Virus genome (UHGV): UHGV-0033546
DNA from: a virus
Reading direction: 5' to 3' (one strand)
DNA: 64,000 nt
Every line of letters begins with the position of its first letter. Within the stretch, counting starts at the first letter, position 1. The notes under the pieces were generated by a model. That model saw only the letters and a program-made list of their open reading frames with translations. It was not told the DNA's origin and did not search any database. Below, one piece after another: positions 9,521 through 13,817 of the stretch. A program made the position numbers and the translations under genes.

Positions 9521-9707
9521 AATAATCTAATGGTAAGAGAGTACGGTATATTTCAAACTTTGGACCTTTTTCATAGGCATCAAATGTTTCTGTAAATTTA
9601 TTATAAGCGTATGCATCTACAAATTCAAGCATGATTTGTGATACAGAAGTAGAAACATCTCCGCCTTCTTTTTGAGCTACAACAATTGTTTCTAAGTAAG
9701 CTTTCAT
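9519..9707 (-). CDS. hypothetical protein (62 aa) downstream of ligase
   Basis: ATG overlaps ligase stop (ATGA), implying translational coupling. Confidence 0.5.
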   Translation of the reverse strand: MKAYLETIVVAQKEGGDVSTSVSQIMLEFVDAYAYNKFTETFDAYEKGPKFEIYRTLLPLDY

Positions 9708-11167
9708 AGACCAGTTACCTCATGAAAATCACCAAATACATCCTCGAATGTATTAGCTTTAGTTTTATCTTCACGCAAACGAATCGCAATTGGAAGAAAT
9801 AATTTAACGTAATCAGCGCGACCATCAGATTTTAACCAACCGTTGCATTCGCACTCTAGAATTTTTCCAATATAATAATTTTGGTTTTCCATGATGCGAG
9901 TACGGTCAAGTTCGTGTGATTTTACACCGGCTTTATCTTTTAAGCCTGAACCAGCATTTACTTTAATTTTTCCACACTCTGACTCGAGAATAAATCCACC
10001 CGCTTTAGTAGGGTCTTTACGGTGAGGATAAATTCCTACAATTTTTAAATCAACATCAATTACTTCTTTAAATTTATAGAGATTTTTTGAACGAGCATTT
10101 TCCCATAACCCATCGACGTTTTTGAGAATAATACCTTCAAGACCTTGGTCAATATATTTTTTATAAATTACCTTGGCTTCGTCTAAATTATTTACTACCT
10201 GGTTTTCAATTAAAATTACTTTGTCATATCCTGATGTCATTTGTTCTAATTTAGAAAAACGTACATCATACTTCAAACGAAATGCTGGAAGACCGTATAT
10301 TTCTACCAACGGAACATAATCCCATACCTGAAACTTCATGCATTGAGCTTCTTTTTCAGAAATGGTTCCTTTTAAGGATTTATTGGCGATTCCATTAGAA
10401 GTAGTACGAGATTCCGCTACTTCAGCGAATTCTTTAGCTTTACTAATTTCAGGATAAGCATCAAAAAGAAAATCTAGGCCTTCTGGTTCCTTTTTAACTT
10501 GCTCATGGTATACCAATTCGCCATCAATTAACACACCTTCTGGATGAATCTGGCGGGCTTCAGCGGTCATTTTGATTAACTCTTCTTTAAGAAAATCTAA
10601 TCCTAGATATTCATTACCAGCTCGTGATAAAAGACGAACATCGTCTAATTCATCACCTCTGATTTCAGCAAAACACCGAGCTCCATCTGCTTTTAACTGT
10701 GCAAAGGCTGGAAATTTGATATTCTTATTAATGCCTTTTTCGTCATAAGAACTTGCAAGCATTTGAGGTTGTTCAGGAATTAAACCTGGCCAGACTTTGT
10801 TTGCAATAGATACAGAAGCACCACATTCAAGGTCTCGCATCATCACTCGACGCAAAACTTCAACATCATCTTTTTTACCGTCAGTAATATAACCAATTAA
10901 TTCTTCAATTGCCGCATTTCCGGTTAATTTCCGAGTAGCTAACGTGAATTCAATAAAATCAAGCATATCGGTAATAGTCAACATTCCAAAACTCTGGGTG
11001 GCAATGCCGGGTTTAGGCCATTTTTTGATATAATACTGCAACCCGCGAGAATAAGTTAGACGATATACTCGTTTAAGCAATTCATTATCTTTATTCTTTT
11101 CAAGAATTGCCTGCTTCTGCTTAGTTGAACCAATAGATGCTATTTCATTCAGAATTTTAAGAATCAT
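9704..11167 (-). CDS. 30: ATP-dependent DNA ligase
   Basis: 487-aa ORF; sequence matches T4 DNA ligase as recalled, incl. adenylation motif KADGARCF. Confidence 0.95.
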   Translation of the reverse strand: MILKILNEIASIGSTKQKQAILEKNKDNELLKRVYRLTYSRGLQYYIKKWPKPGIATQSFGMLTITDMLDFIEFTLATRKLTGNAAIEELIGYITDGKKDDVEVLRRVMMRDLECGASVSIANKVWPGLIPEQPQMLASSYDEKGINKNIKFPAFAQLKADGARCFAEIRGDELDDVRLLSRAGNEYLGLDFLKEELIKMTAEARQIHPEGVLIDGELVYHEQVKKEPEGLDFLFDAYPEISKAKEFAEVAESRTTSNGIANKSLKGTISEKEAQCMKFQVWDYVPLVEIYGLPAFRLKYDVRFSKLEQMTSGYDKVILIENQVVNNLDEAKVIYKKYIDQGLEGIILKNVDGLWENARSKNLYKFKEVIDVDLKIVGIYPHRKDPTKAGGFILESECGKIKVNAGSGLKDKAGVKSHELDRTRIMENQNYYIGKILECECNGWLKSDGRADYVKLFLPIAIRLREDKTKANTFEDVFGDFHEVTGL

Positions 11168-11433
11168 TATTCATCCTTCAGAGTTTGGTTTACAGCTCTA
11201 TTATAAATCAATTCATCATTAAGCTCAGTCAAAGACCTATGATATGTAGTTCTAACTTTATTTCCTTGCATCCAGTGCTTGATATAAATGAAACCTTGCT
11301 CTACACATTTTTTAAAAATTCGTTCGTCTTTTTGAGCTCGGAATTCTGGATTGCATCTAAAAAATTGATTTACGTGACCGTAATCACGTGTAGTATTACC
11401 TTCATTTTCATAAATAGTATGAACAACAAACAT
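11167..11433 (-). CDS. hypothetical protein (88 aa)
   Basis: ATG start; TAATG overlap with upstream ORF. Confidence 0.5.
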   Translation of the reverse strand: MFVVHTIYENEGNTTRDYGHVNQFFRCNPEFRAQKDERIFKKCVEQGFIYIKHWMQGNKVRTTYHRSLTELNDELIYNRAVNQTLKDE

Positions 11434-12275
11434 TAGAATGCTCCTTGGAAAATATTATCAGCACTAGTAGGTCTATTATACAAATACTCTATGCCACCAG
11501 GTTTAATATAGTTCCATGTATGAAATGGATGCACATGATATGGATGTGTATAATATGGATGGTATGGATTTAATCCAGGAGTTCTCCAGGTAGTATTCCA
11601 ACGAAAAGAATCGTTTTTAATCATCTTCTCAATTACATCTTTTATTGCTTTTTCACTATCAAAACTTTCTTTATTTTCCTTTGGTGAAAAAAGCTTATTT
11701 TCTATATCATTCCATGTATAAACTCGCTGAGCAGTTTTTGGAATATTGTCACGCTCTCCTCGAGTCATCCAATAAACAGGAACATTTAATATTTCACTCG
11801 CATGATCACAATGATGAGCGAGATCGTCAATATAACAAATTACATTATATTTCTCTTTTGCCTTTTTGAACAACTCTTCTTTTGAAGAATCATGTCCACA
11901 CATCATTACTTCTGAGAAGGCACCAGGAAAAAGAGCATTCAAATTAAATTGACGATTTAACAGAGCATCAATAGAATCACCCAGTGCTGTAACAGCAACA
12001 AAATTATAATCTTCTTTTAATTTGTTAATTACACACAGGGCATCTTTGTACGGAGACAAGTAACGAATAAAATCTGATCGATTGTATTTTTCAATTAACT
12101 TGACGCCAAGTTCTTCATCGCAATTAAAAAGTTTACCTGGAGAAATAAATTTCTCATCTTGGATCATTTTTAAAATATGTTCTAACGGAAGATTATATTT
12201 CTGAGCAAAATAAGGAAGGCCCGATTGCCAGCTTAAACATACTCCATCAATATCAGTTAAAATAGTAGGCTTCAT
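11433..12275 (-). CDS. HAD-superfamily hydrolase-like protein (possible 5-prime nucleotidase) with His/aromatic-rich C-terminal tail
   Basis: 280 aa; N-terminal LTDIDGV resembles HAD motif I (DxDGx), later YIDD resembles motif IV; tail PYHPYYTHPYHVHPFHTW. Confidence 0.55.
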   Translation of the reverse strand: MKPTILTDIDGVCLSWQSGLPYFAQKYNLPLEHILKMIQDEKFISPGKLFNCDEELGVKLIEKYNRSDFIRYLSPYKDALCVINKLKEDYNFVAVTALGDSIDALLNRQFNLNALFPGAFSEVMMCGHDSSKEELFKKAKEKYNVICYIDDLAHHCDHASEILNVPVYWMTRGERDNIPKTAQRVYTWNDIENKLFSPKENKESFDSEKAIKDVIEKMIKNDSFRWNTTWRTPGLNPYHPYYTHPYHVHPFHTWNYIKPGGIEYLYNRPTSADNIFQGAF

Positions 12276-12730
12276 AGAGAGTCTCTTAATAGGTTTAACA
12301 CATCAATAAATTCAGCTTCGGTTAGTATTGTATCATCTTTTGTTAGACCACTAGCCATGCTATGCTTCAAAACTTTTCCTTTCGAGGCTTGTAATGCATC
12401 GCGAAAGCCCCTGTTTTGGAACGCTGCTTCAAAATATGCATTTGTGTATAATTCTTTCCACGCTGGAGAGTATCTTGAAAACGGAGTTCCAAGCCAGAAG
12501 AGGGTCCCACGGTCCTGAGCTCTAGCATAAGACCTTCCAGCTTGTTGGGCGGCAAGCCCGGATAACCCAAATATACGACGTTGCTGTTCAACATTTTTCA
12601 CCTTGCAACCTTGGAGGAATCCTTCGAGACCTCCAAATTGAATGCCATCCATAATGAAAGGCCATTGGGCGAAATTACTTAATGCGCATGATGGCCATCT
12701 AAAATTGCTTCTAATCTCTAACTCAGACAT
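12272..12730 (-). CDS. NADAR / YbiA-like (DUF1768-like) protein
   Basis: 152 aa from first ATG (track start is TTG); segment LSNFAQWPFIMDGIQFGGLEGFLQGCKV resembles the YbiA motif FSNFAAWPIKVDGKTWPTSEHYFQAQKF, recalled from memory. Confidence 0.5.
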   Translation of the reverse strand: MSELEIRSNFRWPSCALSNFAQWPFIMDGIQFGGLEGFLQGCKVKNVEQQRRIFGLSGLAAQQAGRSYARAQDRGTLFWLGTPFSRYSPAWKELYTNAYFEAAFQNRGFRDALQASKGKVLKHSMASGLTKDDTILTEAEFIDVLNLLRDSL

Positions 12731-12929
12731 TTTCAATACTTATAATTTCAACATCAGCCCAATGACCATAGCAAGGAAGACGAAATTCAACTGGCCAATC
12801 ACTACCTTTTTCTAGTATAATAGACTTAACTTGTGGTTCTTCATGTTCATCAGTATATGGATTTTTATCTGTTACTTTATATGTGACCTTAATGTACTGA
12901 ATTCCAAAAATCTTATTAATTATATTCAT
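12723..12929 (-). CDS. hypothetical protein (68 aa)
   Basis: ATG start; packed between neighbours. Confidence 0.45.
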   Translation of the reverse strand: MNIINKIFGIQYIKVTYKVTDKNPYTDEHEEPQVKSIILEKGSDWPVEFRLPCYGHWADVEIISIENV

Positions 12930-13123
12930 ACTAATTCCTTTAATCCGTAAATAGGAGATAATTCATCACCCATACGAAGGTCTTCATTTCCATCTACCCA
13001 GGAAACAATATAAGCCTCCTTTATTTGAATACCACTCCATTTAAATGGAGGTAGAACCTTAGAAATTAATCCAGGTATACCGACTCCCTTTAATTCAACA
13101 GTTTGACCTAAAAAGAATTTCAT
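12926..13123 (-). CDS. hypothetical protein (65 aa)
   Basis: ATG start; overlaps neighbours by 4 nt. Confidence 0.45.
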   Translation of the reverse strand: MKFFLGQTVELKGVGIPGLISKVLPPFKWSGIQIKEAYIVSWVDGNEDLRMGDELSPIYGLKELV

Positions 13124-13410
13124 TAGAACCTCATCTGAAAGCCATGTGATTTAACATTACCACCATCAATATCAGAAATATTGATTTCACACGCAATTGA
13201 AGGATCAATGTCAATTTCACGATTAAGTTTAGCGATAGCTAAAGTATCGCGCCCATTTACGGTACGGAATTCTAAAGGACAAACCAAATTAACGTAGTTC
13301 TTAATCGATTCGCGGGTAGGTTGCAAATGAGCAGGAAGGTCTTTAGGCGCCTTAGAGAAAACCACTTCACAGAAATTTTTGCGAGTATCAAAATAAGTAG
13401 TCATAAACAT
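13123..13410 (-). CDS. hypothetical protein (95 aa)
   Basis: ATG with GAGGAAA RBS. Confidence 0.5.
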   Translation of the reverse strand: MFMTTYFDTRKNFCEVVFSKAPKDLPAHLQPTRESIKNYVNLVCPLEFRTVNGRDTLAIAKLNREIDIDPSIACEINISDIDGGNVKSHGFQMRF

Positions 13411-13451
13411 AGTATTTTCCTCAGTAAGGGGCCGAAGCCCCTCATTTCATT

Positions 13452-13817
13452 TTAAATATCAAATTCGTTAAGAACTACATCAAAGATTGCTTCAAGATGC
13501 TCAGGTTTAGCTCTGTTACTCAGAATATGACGAATCCAAGTTTTAACTAAGAGTTTACGATTAACACCATTCCAGCAAGGATGAGTCCCTAAATCGCGTT
13601 GACGAAAATCATCATCCAGAGCGATTTTGAAGTTTGAACCTTCCATTGTGATTGAAACCGTGATGCCATTTTCAAATCGCATATAAACGTAGTTAGGAGT
13701 CATATACTGTTCAATTTCGCATACTGATCCATTTTGATGTTTCCAAAGGCAGATGGTATCAATAGAACCTGCAATACCATTAGAAACATATTTACGTTCG
13801 AAGTTGATGTAGTTCAT
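13452..13817 (-). CDS. hypothetical protein (121 aa)
   Basis: ATG with GGAGA RBS; early promoter upstream. Confidence 0.5.
   Translation of the reverse strand: MNYINFERKYVSNGIAGSIDTICLWKHQNGSVCEIEQYMTPNYVYMRFENGITVSITMEGSNFKIALDDDFRQRDLGTHPCWNGVNRKLLVKTWIRHILSNRAKPEHLEAIFDVVLNEFDI

What the first reader, a model, noticed from the sequence alone, without database searches (positions are those of the whole stretch)
11433..12275. HAD-like hydrolase carrying an unusual His/Pro/Tyr/Trp-rich C-terminal tail
The N-terminus has LTDIDGV (HAD motif I-like) and a later YIDD, suggesting a phosphatase or deoxynucleotidase that would fit phage nucleotide metabolism. The last ~50 residues (WNTTWRTPGLNPYHPYYTHPYHVHPFHTWNYIKPGG) form a His/aromatic repeat unlike typical HAD proteins, possibly metal-binding or a separate module.
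Basis: inference. Interest (0 to 1): 0.45.

Follow-up and report, generated by a model that had tools for sequence, protein, structure and literature searches.

The report
T4 gp30.2: nucleotidase-like phosphatase with floppy tail
This is the T4-type phage gene 30.2, an uncharacterised but ordinary-looking phosphatase most similar to enzymes that remove phosphate from DNA building blocks, with a fast-evolving, probably unstructured tail whose histidines are not conserved.

Summary
The ORF (window 11433-12275, minus strand, 280 aa) is real. It is the Tequatrovirus homologue of T4 gene 30.2, lying between adfN/30.3 and 30.1 plus DNA ligase.

**Core (residues 1-195).** It is a confidently modelled HAD-fold phosphatase with a helical C1 cap. 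All catalytic motifs are conserved: D8-x-D10-G-V, VAVT96, K132, D150-D151. The nearest solved relatives by fold and profile are 5'(3')-deoxyribonucleotidases (cdN/mdN, 3bwv). Pfam's NT5C model does not hit the protein itself, but it hits 23 of 71 distant family members.

**Tail (residues 196-280).** It consists of a helix followed by a low-confidence Pro/aromatic-rich stretch.
- It is present and in frame in every Tequatrovirus checked, but its length varies through 15/24-nt repeat expansion (276-295 aa).
- dN/dS is 0.18-0.28, against 0.02-0.06 for the core.
- It is absent from RB69-like and non-enterobacterial T4-like phages.
- Close relatives replace its histidines with Q or N, so a conserved metal-binding role is not supported.
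- Two short motifs (WxxPxxxx[LYF][KRH][AP][YW][YF] and GGIEYLxNxPT) recur in homologues about 50% identical.
- Long tails co-occur with the downstream gene 30.1.

The substrate and the tail's role remain inferences. T4 30.2 knock-down showed no fitness effect.

The parts
11433..12275 (-). Gene 30.2 homologue, 280 aa plus stop codon
   Evidence: ORF. It is 95-96% nt identical to Tequatrovirus genomes. It matches phrog_420 at E=1e-92. The homologous ORF is annotated '30.2' in phage LZ and T2 records.
11691..12275 (-). HAD-fold catalytic core with C1 cap (residues 1-195)
   Evidence: AF2 pLDDT is 92-98 over this range. Foldseek hits HAD enzymes in PDB at E about 1e-8. dN/dS is 0.02-0.06.
12240..12254 (-). 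HAD motif I, D8-I-D10-G-V12 (nucleophile Asp8, acid/base Asp10)
   Evidence: D8 and D10 are invariant in A1 (75 sequences) and A2 (71 distant sequences), and V12 is at least 90% conserved. The motif sits at the end of strand 4-7. Motif definition from PMC3946280.
12018..12236 (-). Helical C1 cap inserted after motif I (residues 14-86), including the near-invariant W16
   Evidence: Helices 16-26, 32-40, 46-49, 54-65, 68-72 and 77-86. W16 aligns with the Phe of 'DGVLADFESGL' in cdN 2jao. W16 is at least 90% conserved in A2.
11988..11999 (-). HAD motif II, V93-A-V-T96
   Evidence: T96 is at least 90% conserved. It lies at the end of strand 91-96.
11952..11954 (-). R108, a family-invariant basic residue 12 positions after motif II
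   Evidence: Invariant in A1 and A2. It aligns with a Lys of 3bwv.
11880..11882 (-). HAD motif III lysine, K132
   Evidence: Invariant in A1 and A2. It precedes helix 133-142.
11823..11828 (-). HAD motif IV, D150-D151 (Mg2+ ligands)
   Evidence: Invariant in A1; D151 is at least 90% conserved in A2. It lies at the end of strand 145-150.
11616..11666 (-). Linker helix, residues 204-220 (FDSEKAIKDVIEKMIKN)
   Evidence: AF2 predicts a helix at 204-220; block 211-220 has pLDDT 84.
11550..11588 (-). Tail motif A, W230-RTPGLNPYHPY-Y242
   Evidence: The pattern [WY]-x6-9-[LYF]-[KRH]-[AP]-[YWF]-[YF] recurs in many tailed homologues, often as a C-terminal '..LRAYY'.
11514..11567 (-). Variable-copy Pro/aromatic/His repeat, P237-W254
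   Evidence: TRF reports 15 nt x 2.8 copies at 11520-11561. BYEP01 has 24 nt x 3.3 copies at 94% matches. Protein length ranges 276-295 aa in 8 Tequatroviruses, and His is swapped with Q/N.
11466..11498 (-). Tail motif B, G260-GIEYLYNRP-T270
   Evidence: G-[TG]-G-I-E-Y-L-x-x-Q-P-T is conserved in homologues 45-55% identical. It is degenerate (GDAGYFNR[FL]T) in some Tequatroviruses.
11436..11459 (-). C-terminal DNIFQGAF
   Evidence: Identical in all 8 Tequatrovirus tails compared. It is not conserved outside the genus.
12272..12736 (-). Neighbour: gene 30.3 = adfN (NADAR, anti-DarTG1). Its stop overlaps the 30.2 start (ATGA).
   Evidence: PF08010 at E=8e-69. Function from PMC11825919. The overlap was read from the sequence.
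11167..11433 (-). Neighbour: gene 30.1 (DUF3045, 88 aa). Its start overlaps the 30.2 stop (TAATG).
   Evidence: PF11243 at E=1e-64. Its distribution matches that of long 30.2 tails.
9704..11167 (-). Neighbour: gene 30, ATP-dependent DNA ligase
   Evidence: ORF. The homologous gene is annotated DNA ligase in related genomes. PF01068 is assigned in related loci.

Best explanation
The gene encodes the T4 gp30.2 homologue, a Mg2+-dependent phosphomonoesterase of the HAD superfamily. It belongs to a divergent, mostly phage-borne branch whose nearest characterised relatives are the 5'(3')-deoxyribonucleotidases (NT5C/cdN/mdN type). The inferred mechanism follows the usual HAD scheme. Asp8 attacks the substrate phosphate to form an aspartyl-phosphate intermediate. 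Asp10 acts as general acid/base. Thr96, Lys132 and probably Arg108 hold the phosphoryl group. Asp150/Asp151 hold Mg2+. The helical cap closes over a small substrate, with Trp16 in the position of the cap aromatic that lines the nucleoside pocket in cdN/mdN. The most likely substrates are (deoxy)nucleoside monophosphates, making this an accessory enzyme that trims or cleans the phage-infected cell's nucleotide pool. The C-terminal 85 residues are not part of the enzyme fold. They form a helix followed by an intrinsically disordered Pro/aromatic-rich arm carrying two conserved short motifs separated by a repeat of variable copy number. The arm most plausibly docks or regulates a partner; gp30.1 is the leading candidate. 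It is unlikely to bind metal. Shown here: fold, motifs, family placement, tail conservation pattern, co-distribution with 30.1. Inferred: catalysis, substrate class, physiological role, tail function.
For: Fold: the AF2 core has pLDDT 92-98. Foldseek against PDB returns 114 hits at E<=1e-3, and all 50 listed are HAD-superfamily structures. cdN/mdN (2jao, 2i7d, 4yih, 1q92; rmsd 4.4-4.8, TMt 0.63-0.66) and 3bwv (TMt 0.65-0.71) are the tightest. BFVD hits after the orthologues are phage proteins named 5'-nucleotidase or nucleotidase.
Motifs: D8, D10, R108 and K132 are invariant, and V12, W16, T96 and D151 are at least 90% conserved, across 71 members down to about 22% identity. They fit the DXDX[T/V], hhh[S/T] and K..D(X)0-4D definitions for intracellular 5'-nucleotidases (PMC3946280).
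Family link: a profile of distant members hits 3bwv 'putative 5'(3')-deoxyribonucleotidase' over its full length at E=5e-7, followed by nucleotide phosphatases and mdN/cdN. 23 of 71 members hit Pfam NT5C, best E=4e-10. The closer-family profile has 2jao as its best PDB hit (E=0.033), with DGVLvkWqSgL aligned to DGVLADFESGL.
Selection: core dN/dS is 0.02-0.06.
Precedent: phage PBS1 Dtm is an mdN-like, Mg2+-dependent dTMP phosphatase (PMC12697855).
Tail: pLDDT is 43-59. All length variation is in frame and dN/dS is 0.18-0.28, so the tail is translated and weakly constrained. Motifs A and B recur in homologues 45-55% identical. Long tails occur in 26 of 33 loci that have a 30.1 gene, against 3 of 45 without one. 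There is one joint loss, and phiR1-RT-like phages have a 30.2 whose C-terminal extension weakly matches DUF3045 while they lack a separate 30.1.
Against: No enzymatic data exist for any member. Pfam NT5C, other Pfam models and NCBIfam do not hit the window protein itself, so the nucleotidase assignment is transitive and structural. HAD substrate specificity cannot be read reliably from fold. Foldseek E-values to YfnB, haloacid dehalogenases and epoxysuccinate hydrolases are as good as those to cdN.
T4 30.2 knock-down had no fitness effect in the CRISPRi-ART screen (PMC11879866 supplement), so the role is dispensable in the laboratory.
For the tail-gp30.1 idea: an AF2 model of tail fused to gp30.1 left the tail at pLDDT 27-46. 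RB69-like phages keep 30.1 but have lost the tail. The co-distribution is largely one clade, so there are few independent events. Motif B is degenerate in part of Tequatrovirus itself.
Confidence: 0.55

Rival explanations
1. gp30.2 is a nucleic-acid end-healing 3'-phosphatase that prepares nicks for the adjacent DNA ligase. It would be a second, kinase-less counterpart of T4 PseT.
For: In 67 of 78 related loci a ligase gene starts within about 600 nt of the 30.2 stop, down to about 31% identity. There is a weak match to phrog_415 'polynucleotide kinase' (E=0.0027, residues 74-167). PNK phosphatase domains appear lower in the BFVD list. One marine viral protein (P0151) fuses a 'DNA polymerase' PHROG domain (E=2e-34) to a 30.2-like HAD domain.
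Against: The protein has a 73-residue helical C1 cap. By established knowledge of the HAD superfamily, such caps go with small-molecule substrates, whereas PNKP-type phosphatases are capless. Profile and fold similarity to NT5C-type enzymes is much stronger than to PNK. Gene order in T4-like phages is inherited as a block, so adjacency is weak evidence. Distant members sit in other contexts. From general knowledge of T4, these phages already encode PseT; a PNK gene is seen near the locus in L001.
Confidence: 0.12
2. It is a HAD phosphatase for a non-nucleotide metabolite, such as a sugar phosphate, phosphoglycolate, or an FMN/riboflavin intermediate. It might be linked to the neighbouring NADAR protein in the way bacterial YbiA and YigB are.
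For: Foldseek E-values to YfnB and other subfamily-IA HADs equal those to cdN. One JGI homologue is labelled 'FMN phosphatase YigB' and a phage hit 'phosphoglycolate phosphatase'. 30.3 (NADAR) directly precedes 30.2 in Tequatrovirus, RB69-like and Acinetobacter phages.
Against: The only significant full-length sequence-profile links are to nucleotidases. AdfN is experimentally a DNA ADP-ribosylglycohydrolase, not a riboflavin enzyme (PMC11825919). Many phages with 30.2 have no 30.3 within 4 kb.
Confidence: 0.2
3. The His/aromatic tail is a metal-binding module.
For: The window tail has 5 His in 18 residues (HPYYTHPYHVHPFH), the highest His fraction among the 42 tailed homologues.
Against: His is the least conserved feature. 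T4 and ESh30 have 2 His in the same stretch, with Q or N at the other positions, although their cores are about 97-99% identical. Mean His content of homologous tails is 1.6%, below that of the cores at 2.6%. No Cys/His pattern is conserved, and AF2 gives no fold.
Confidence: 0.05
4. gp30.2 is the unidentified T-even factor that AdfN (gp30.3) needs for full anti-DarTG1 activity.
For: The AdfN authors infer a requirement for an additional T-even protein (PMC11825919). 30.2 is translationally overlapped with adfN (ATGA) and is present in RB69, where AdfN-T4 works.
Against: There is no mechanistic need for a phosphatase in removing ADP-ribose from guanine. Co-occurrence is loose: tailed 30.2 genes in Klebsiella-type phages lack a nearby 30.3.
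Confidence: 0.04

Closest known systems
Mammalian cytosolic and mitochondrial 5'(3')-deoxyribonucleotidases (cdN/NT5C, mdN/NT5M; PDB 2jao, 2i7d, 1q92, 1z4i)
   Same: Both have a HAD Rossmannoid core plus a small helical C1 cap and are about 195-200 aa. They share DxDGV motif I followed by an aromatic six residues after the second Asp, T in motif II, K, and DD. These are the best low-rmsd structural matches, and 2jao is the best PDB sequence hit for the close-family profile.
   Different: Identity is only 14-17%, and Pfam NT5C does not reach any threshold on the window protein. Trp replaces Phe after motif I. Arg108 occupies the position where 3bwv has Lys. The mammalian enzymes have no C-terminal disordered tail. 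The substrate of gp30.2 is untested.
Bacterial 'deoxyribonucleotidase-like' proteins such as Staphylococcus epidermidis NP_764060 (PDB 3bwv)
   Same: The only full-length significant profile hit in the PDB (E=5e-7, residues 3-197), and the highest TM-score normalised on the target (0.65-0.71).
   Different: 3bwv is itself biochemically uncharacterised. It is shorter (180 aa) and has no tail.
Dtm of Bacillus phage PBS1 (dTMP phosphatase, mdN-like HAD)
   Same: A phage-encoded, Mg2+-dependent, mdN-like nucleotidase that was recognised only by structure prediction (PMC12697855). It shows what a phage does with such an enzyme: it removes an unwanted dNMP from the pool.
   Different: Dtm serves dU-DNA synthesis. 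gp30.2 homologues are found in T4-like phages infecting many different host genera, so a role tied to one base modification seems unlikely (inference; the DNA modification of these phages was not examined here).
T4 PseT (Pnkp) phosphatase domain
   Same: A HAD DxDxT-type phosphatase encoded by the same phages, with weak profile similarity (phrog_415).
   Different: PseT is capless and fused to a kinase, and it acts on polynucleotide 3' ends. gp30.2 has a C1 cap and no kinase.

Membership tests
HAD superfamily, phosphatase branch | Motif I DxDx[T/V], with the nucleophile Asp and an Asp at +2 (general acid/base of phosphatases) | tested here: met
   D8-I-D10-G-V12. D8 and D10 are invariant in 75 close and 71 distant homologues.
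HAD superfamily, phosphatase branch | Motif II: three hydrophobic residues then S/T at the end of a strand | tested here: met
   V93-A-V-T96 at the end of strand 91-96. T96 is at least 90% conserved.
HAD superfamily, phosphatase branch | Motif III Lys and motif IV acidic pair (DD) | tested here: met
   K132 is invariant. D150-D151 are invariant in A1, and D151 is at least 90% conserved in A2.
HAD superfamily, phosphatase branch | Rossmannoid alpha/beta core with a cap insertion | tested here: met
   The AF2 model has pLDDT above 90 over residues 1-195. All 50 listed Foldseek PDB hits are HAD-superfamily structures.
HAD superfamily, phosphatase branch | Mg2+-dependent phosphoryl transfer through an aspartyl-phosphate intermediate | not testable with these tools
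   Requires an enzyme assay and a D8N control.
NT5C / 5'(3')-deoxyribonucleotidase family (Pfam PF06941) | Match to the curated family model above its gathering score | tested here: not met
   No Pfam family at E<=1 for the window protein. 23 of 71 distant relatives of the same HMMER family do match NT5C at E<=0.01, best 4e-10.
NT5C / 5'(3')-deoxyribonucleotidase family (Pfam PF06941) | Same core and cap architecture as cdN/mdN | tested here: met
   rmsd 4.4-4.8 A over about 210 columns, with TM normalised on the target of 0.63-0.66. 3bwv is hit over its full length at E=5e-7.
NT5C / 5'(3')-deoxyribonucleotidase family (Pfam PF06941) | Aromatic cap residue next to motif I that lines the nucleoside pocket | tested here: inconclusive
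   W16 (at least 90% conserved) aligns with the Phe of DGVLADF in 2jao. The role of the Phe in cdN/mdN is from memory.
NT5C / 5'(3')-deoxyribonucleotidase family (Pfam PF06941) | Hydrolysis of 5'- or 3'-dNMPs | not testable with these tools
   Requires biochemistry.
PNKP-type polynucleotide 3'-phosphatase | Capless (C0) HAD core giving access to polymer ends, usually fused to a P-loop kinase | tested here: not met
   A helical cap spans residues 14-86. There is no kinase domain. Only a partial weak match to phrog_415, E=0.0027.
His-rich metal-binding tails | Conserved His (or Cys) ligands | tested here: not met
   His positions are swapped for Q/N among Tequatroviruses. Mean tail His content in homologues is 1.6%.

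The most novel reading that the evidence does not exclude
The tail may be a rapidly evolving, repeat-expandable disordered arm whose two conserved short motifs recruit the nucleotidase to a phage partner. Candidates are gp30.1 (gained, lost and in one lineage apparently fused together with it), and through it perhaps DNA ligase or AdfN. The 30.3-30.2-30.1-30 block would then work as one DNA-damage or nucleotide clean-up module. Under this reading gp30.2 could be the missing T-even factor for AdfN.
Probability: 0.1. Interest if true: 0.6.

Novelty: new member of a known kind. Interest (0 to 1): 0.3.

Why it matters
T4 is the best-studied large phage, yet about half of its genes, including 30.2, have no function. 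Placing gp30.2 among NT5C-like nucleotidases gives a directly testable activity for a protein present in about 1,450 sequenced phage genomes. It would also add a catabolic step to T4's nucleotide-metabolism enzyme set. The tail data give a clean natural experiment: tailed, tail-less and fused versions can be compared to learn what the neighbouring orphan gene 30.1 does. None of this overturns current understanding. The fold assignment already exists as an automatic UniRef name for one Tequatrovirus member, and the gene is dispensable in laboratory infection.

Tried and rejected
1. Direct Pfam, NCBIfam and PDB sequence searches with the single protein found nothing. Profiles and structure prediction were needed.
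2. A tail-only profile search of 5.8 billion proteins returned only two fragments of 30.2 itself, so there is no evidence that the tail is a mobile module. The word index produced only 22 candidates, so the sensitivity of this search was low.
3. The search for related loci with the distant alignment A2 failed because it has no conserved 7-10-mer.
4. BLASTP of the phiR1-RT-type extension against gp30.1 was not significant. Only a small-database HMM search gave a weak match (15.7 bits), so the 'fusion' is tentative.
5. An AF2 model of a tail+gp30.1 chimera showed no docking; the tail pLDDT was 27-46. A full-length 30.2+30.1 alignment was abandoned because MAFFT misplaced the 30.1 homologues.
6. 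A Foldseek search with the gp30.1 model found nothing; the best E-value was 1.1.
7. The resemblance between the gp30.1 C-terminal 'EVAYNR' and tail motif B 'IEYLYNR' does not hold across lineages and was dropped.
8. Promoter, terminator and MotA-box scans found nothing on the coding strand in the tail-coding DNA, so there is no sign of an overlapping regulatory element that would explain its odd evolution.
9. PADLOC gave no hits.
10. Literature: 'gp30.2' occurs in no paper of the library. The Thanatos-1 paper does not mention its homologue.
11. The metal-binding reading was rejected on conservation grounds.
Full report
**What is there**

The finding's coordinates hold a single minus-strand ORF, 11433..12275, of 280 aa.

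The gene is tightly packed with its neighbours. Its ATG overlaps the stop of the upstream ORF (ATGA at 12272-12275), and its TAA overlaps the ATG of the downstream ORF (TAATG at 11431-11435). The upstream ORF is Pfam Phage_30_3 (E=8e-69). The downstream one is DUF3045 (E=1e-64), followed by a 487-aa DNA ligase.

The DNA is 95-96% identical to Tequatrovirus genomes such as PE37. 499 phage records cover at least 80% of the gene. Phage LZ and T2 records name the homologous ORF '30.2'. So this is the T4 gene 30.2 homologue in the block 30.3-30.2-30.1-30. Gene 30.3 has recently been characterised as AdfN, a NADAR enzyme that removes DarT1-made ADP-ribose from phage DNA (PMC11825919).

**The core is a HAD phosphatase of the deoxyribonucleotidase type**

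Searches with the single sequence are silent: there are no Pfam, NCBIfam or PDB hits, only phrog_420 'unknown function'.

A word-indexed search gave 100 homologues. An exhaustive HMMER profile search gave 1,338 cluster representatives at E<=1e-3, most of them 190-215 aa long.

In 75 closer homologues the following are invariant: D8, D10, W16, S18, R108, N111, L112, K132, D150 and D151. T96 is nearly invariant. In 71 members down to about 22% identity, D8, D10, R108 and K132 remain invariant, and V12, W16, T96, N111, L112, F120 and D151 are at least 90% conserved. These residues are exactly the motifs that define HAD-type intracellular 5'-nucleotidases: DXDX[T/V], three hydrophobics plus S/T, and K...D(X)0-4D (PMC3946280).

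AlphaFold2 with this alignment gives pLDDT 92-98 for residues 1-195. The motifs sit at the ends of strands 4-7, 91-96 and 145-150, and a helical insertion (residues 14-86) follows motif I. This insertion is a C1 cap.

Foldseek against the PDB finds 114 hits at E<=1e-3, and all 50 listed are HAD-superfamily structures. The best E-values go to YfnB and cis-epoxysuccinate hydrolases. The tightest superpositions are the 5'(3')-deoxyribonucleotidases cdN/mdN (rmsd 4.4-4.8 A, TM on target 0.63-0.66) and the deoxyribonucleotidase-like 3bwv (0.65-0.71).

Sequence profiles agree:
- The close-family profile's best PDB hit is cdN 2jao (E=0.033), with DGVLvkWqSgL aligned to DGVLADFESGL.
- The distant-family profile hits 3bwv over its whole length at E=5e-7, followed by pyrimidine nucleotidases and mdN/cdN.
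- 23 of the 71 distant members individually match Pfam NT5C, best E=4e-10.
- In the viral structure library, the hits after the orthologues are phage proteins labelled 5'-nucleotidase or nucleotidase.

The core is under strong purifying selection, with dN/dS of 0.02-0.06 against seven other Tequatroviruses.

I conclude with high confidence that the protein is an active HAD phosphomonoesterase, because Asp at +2 marks phosphatases. With moderate confidence I conclude that its substrates are (deoxy)nucleoside monophosphates. It should not be filed as a Pfam NT5C member, because that model does not reach threshold on it. It is a divergent sister branch.

**The tail**

Residues 196-280 lie outside the fold. 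AF2 predicts a helix at 204-220 and then gives pLDDT 43-59. In residues 223-258 His+Pro+Tyr+Trp+Phe reach 56%, against 18% in the core. The DNA contains a 15-nt tandem repeat (2.8 copies, 11520-11561).

Within Tequatrovirus the tail is always present and always in frame. In 30 of 30 records sampled across the ranking, the tail-coding stretch differs by -12 to +45 nt, always a multiple of three. Eight translated examples range from 276 to 295 aa, through one to three copies of NPYYTHPY. BYEP01 has a 24-nt unit x 3.3 copies at 94% matches.

Tail dN/dS is 0.18-0.28. That is relaxed about ten-fold relative to the core, but it is not neutral.

The histidines are the least stable feature. T4 and ESh30 carry two where the window has five, with Q or N at the other positions. 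Across 42 tailed homologues the mean His content of tails is 1.6%, and the window has the highest value at 5.9%. Pro (10% against 4%) and Trp (3.4% against 1.4%) enrichment are general. This argues against a conserved metal site.

Two short motifs are conserved:
- Motif A is W230-RTPGLNPYHPY-Y242, with the general form [WY]-x6-9-[LYF]-[KRH]-[AP]-[YWF]-[YF]. In many lineages it forms the very C-terminus ('..LRAYY').
- Motif B is G260-GIEYLYNRP-T270, G-T-G-I-E-Y-L-x-x-Q-P-T in homologues only 45-55% identical.

The His-rich repeat lies in a variable-length segment between the two motifs. Motif B is degenerate (GDAGYFNR[FL]T) in a subset of Tequatroviruses. A profile of the tail found no other protein carrying it, although that search produced few candidates.

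**Distribution and context**

By tblastn the core occurs in 1,457 of 50,697 phage genomes. The hosts are Escherichia, Klebsiella, Shigella, Aeromonas, Acinetobacter, Vibrio and others, plus a few jumbo phages. The gene is almost always annotated as hypothetical.

In 78 IMG/VR loci, a ligase gene starts within about 600 nt downstream in 67. The arrangement persists at about 31% identity but not in the most distant members.

Long tails (at least 40 aa) are confined to the enterobacterial T4-like clade, which also has a 30.1 gene directly downstream. They occur in 26 of 33 loci with 30.1, against 3 of 45 without.

On a neighbour-joining tree of the cores the pattern resolves into these events:
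- one joint gain;
- one joint loss (L039/L040);
- two tail-only losses (RB69-like phages and L033).

In the phiR1-RT-like lineage a 117-aa extension replaces the tail and no separate 30.1 exists. That extension gives a weak DUF3045 match (15.7 bits), although BLASTP sees nothing.

This suggests, but does not show, that the tail and gp30.1 work together. An AF2 model of tail fused to gp30.1 did not dock them: tail pLDDT was 27-46 and gp30.1 was 71-83. Gp30.1 has no structural relatives in the PDB. No promoter-like, terminator-like or MotA-box element overlaps the tail-coding DNA on the coding strand.

**Function in the phage**

No paper in the library mentions gp30.2. In the CRISPRi-ART screen T4 30.2 is listed as unknown function. 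Its knock-down is 'Not Fit' (score -0.34, p=0.82), while 30.1 is 'Semi-Fit' (PMC11879866 supplement). The gene is therefore accessory in laboratory infection.

A precedent for a phage mdN-like nucleotidase is Dtm of PBS1, which removes dTMP so that dU-DNA can be made (PMC12697855). gp30.2 homologues are spread over T4-like phages of many host genera. I therefore infer a general pool-trimming or house-cleaning role rather than one tied to a particular base modification.

**Rivals**

- A ligase-linked DNA 3'-phosphatase. Support comes from adjacency to ligase, a weak PNK profile match, and a marine viral fusion of a polymerase-like domain to a 30.2-like HAD. The C1 cap and the much stronger nucleotidase links argue against it.
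- A non-nucleotide small-molecule phosphatase.
- The unknown T-even cofactor of AdfN. This is suggested only by the gene overlap and by the AdfN authors' inference that such a factor exists.

**Verdict**

The HAD/deoxynucleotidase interpretation is supported at the level of fold and family. The metal-binding idea is not supported. The tail is a lineage-specific, repeat-variable, probably disordered extension with two conserved short motifs and an unexplained link to gene 30.1.

This is a new, uncharacterised member of a known enzyme kind. One UniRef entry already calls a Tequatrovirus member a HAD-like domain protein. It is useful as an annotation and as a testable hypothesis, but it is not surprising.

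Noticed in passing
window 12272-12736 (-): Gene 30.3 is AdfN, the NADAR anti-DarTG1 enzyme. The ORF here is full length (152 aa from the ATG at M3; the ORF listing starts it two codons earlier at a TTG). It is therefore unlike the frameshift-truncated RB69 allele that makes RB69 DarTG1-sensitive (PMC11825919), and this phage would be predicted DarTG1-resistant.
   Followed up: partly
window 11167-11433 (-); loci L016-L053: Gene 30.1 (DUF3045, 88 aa) has the same clade distribution as long 30.2 tails. It was 'Semi-Fit' in the T4 CRISPRi-ART screen whereas 30.2 and 30 were 'Not Fit'. AF2 gives a moderately confident alpha/beta fold (pLDDT 71-83) with no PDB relative.
   Followed up: partly
P0067/P0069; loci L049, L091 (phiR1-RT/TG1-like Yersinia phages): The 30.2 homologue is 312-328 aa. 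Its C-terminal extension of about 117 aa weakly matches DUF3045, and the genome has no separate 30.1. This may be a natural 30.2::30.1 fusion. P0014 (302 aa, on a 1.4-kb contig) is a clear 30.2-30.1 fusion, but it could be a sequencing frameshift because the two genes overlap by 13 nt in the related locus L033.
   Followed up: partly
L004 6001-7776 (P0151, Antarctic marine viral contig): A 591-aa protein fuses an N-terminal domain matching phrog_24943 'DNA polymerase' (E=2e-34) to a 30.2-like HAD domain, next to a PolA-type polymerase gene. By eye the N-domain has a GDxD nucleotidyltransferase-like motif; this was not tested.
   Followed up: partly
P0144 (365 aa), P0082 (347 aa), P0103 (430 aa), P0202 (660 aa): Other 30.2-like HADs carry different extra regions. 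P0144 has a C-terminal stretch with an 'NGRHR' motif reminiscent of ParB/sulfiredoxin domains (by eye only). P0082 has a Cys-rich end matching phrog_19749. P0103 has a 220-aa insertion but still ends in motif A ('LRATF'). P0202 has a 500-aa N-terminal region of unknown type.
   Followed up: no
cluster of P0001: The 90%-identity protein cluster that holds gp30.2 also lists 152-aa AdfN/gp30.3 sequences as members. This is presumably a clustering artefact of read-through or merged gene calls across the ATGA overlap. Cluster sizes for this protein (1,386 members) should therefore not be taken at face value.
   Followed up: no
Tequatrovirus loci L009-L012, L015, L018, L019: About half of the sampled Tequatroviruses have a second tail allele, in which motif B reads GDAGYFNR[FL]TSG(SG)DNIFQGAF instead of GGIEYLYNRPTS(A/G)DNIFQGAF. 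The two alleles do not track repeat copy number, which suggests recombination within the tail-coding region.
   Followed up: partly
window 13427-13442 (+): This is the only terminator-like hairpin in the 9.6-13.9 kb stretch (AGGGGCCGAAGCCCCT followed by a T-rich run). It lies on the strand opposite to the genes, so it may be a bidirectional or antisense element between the ORFs at 13123-13410 and 13452-13817.
   Followed up: no
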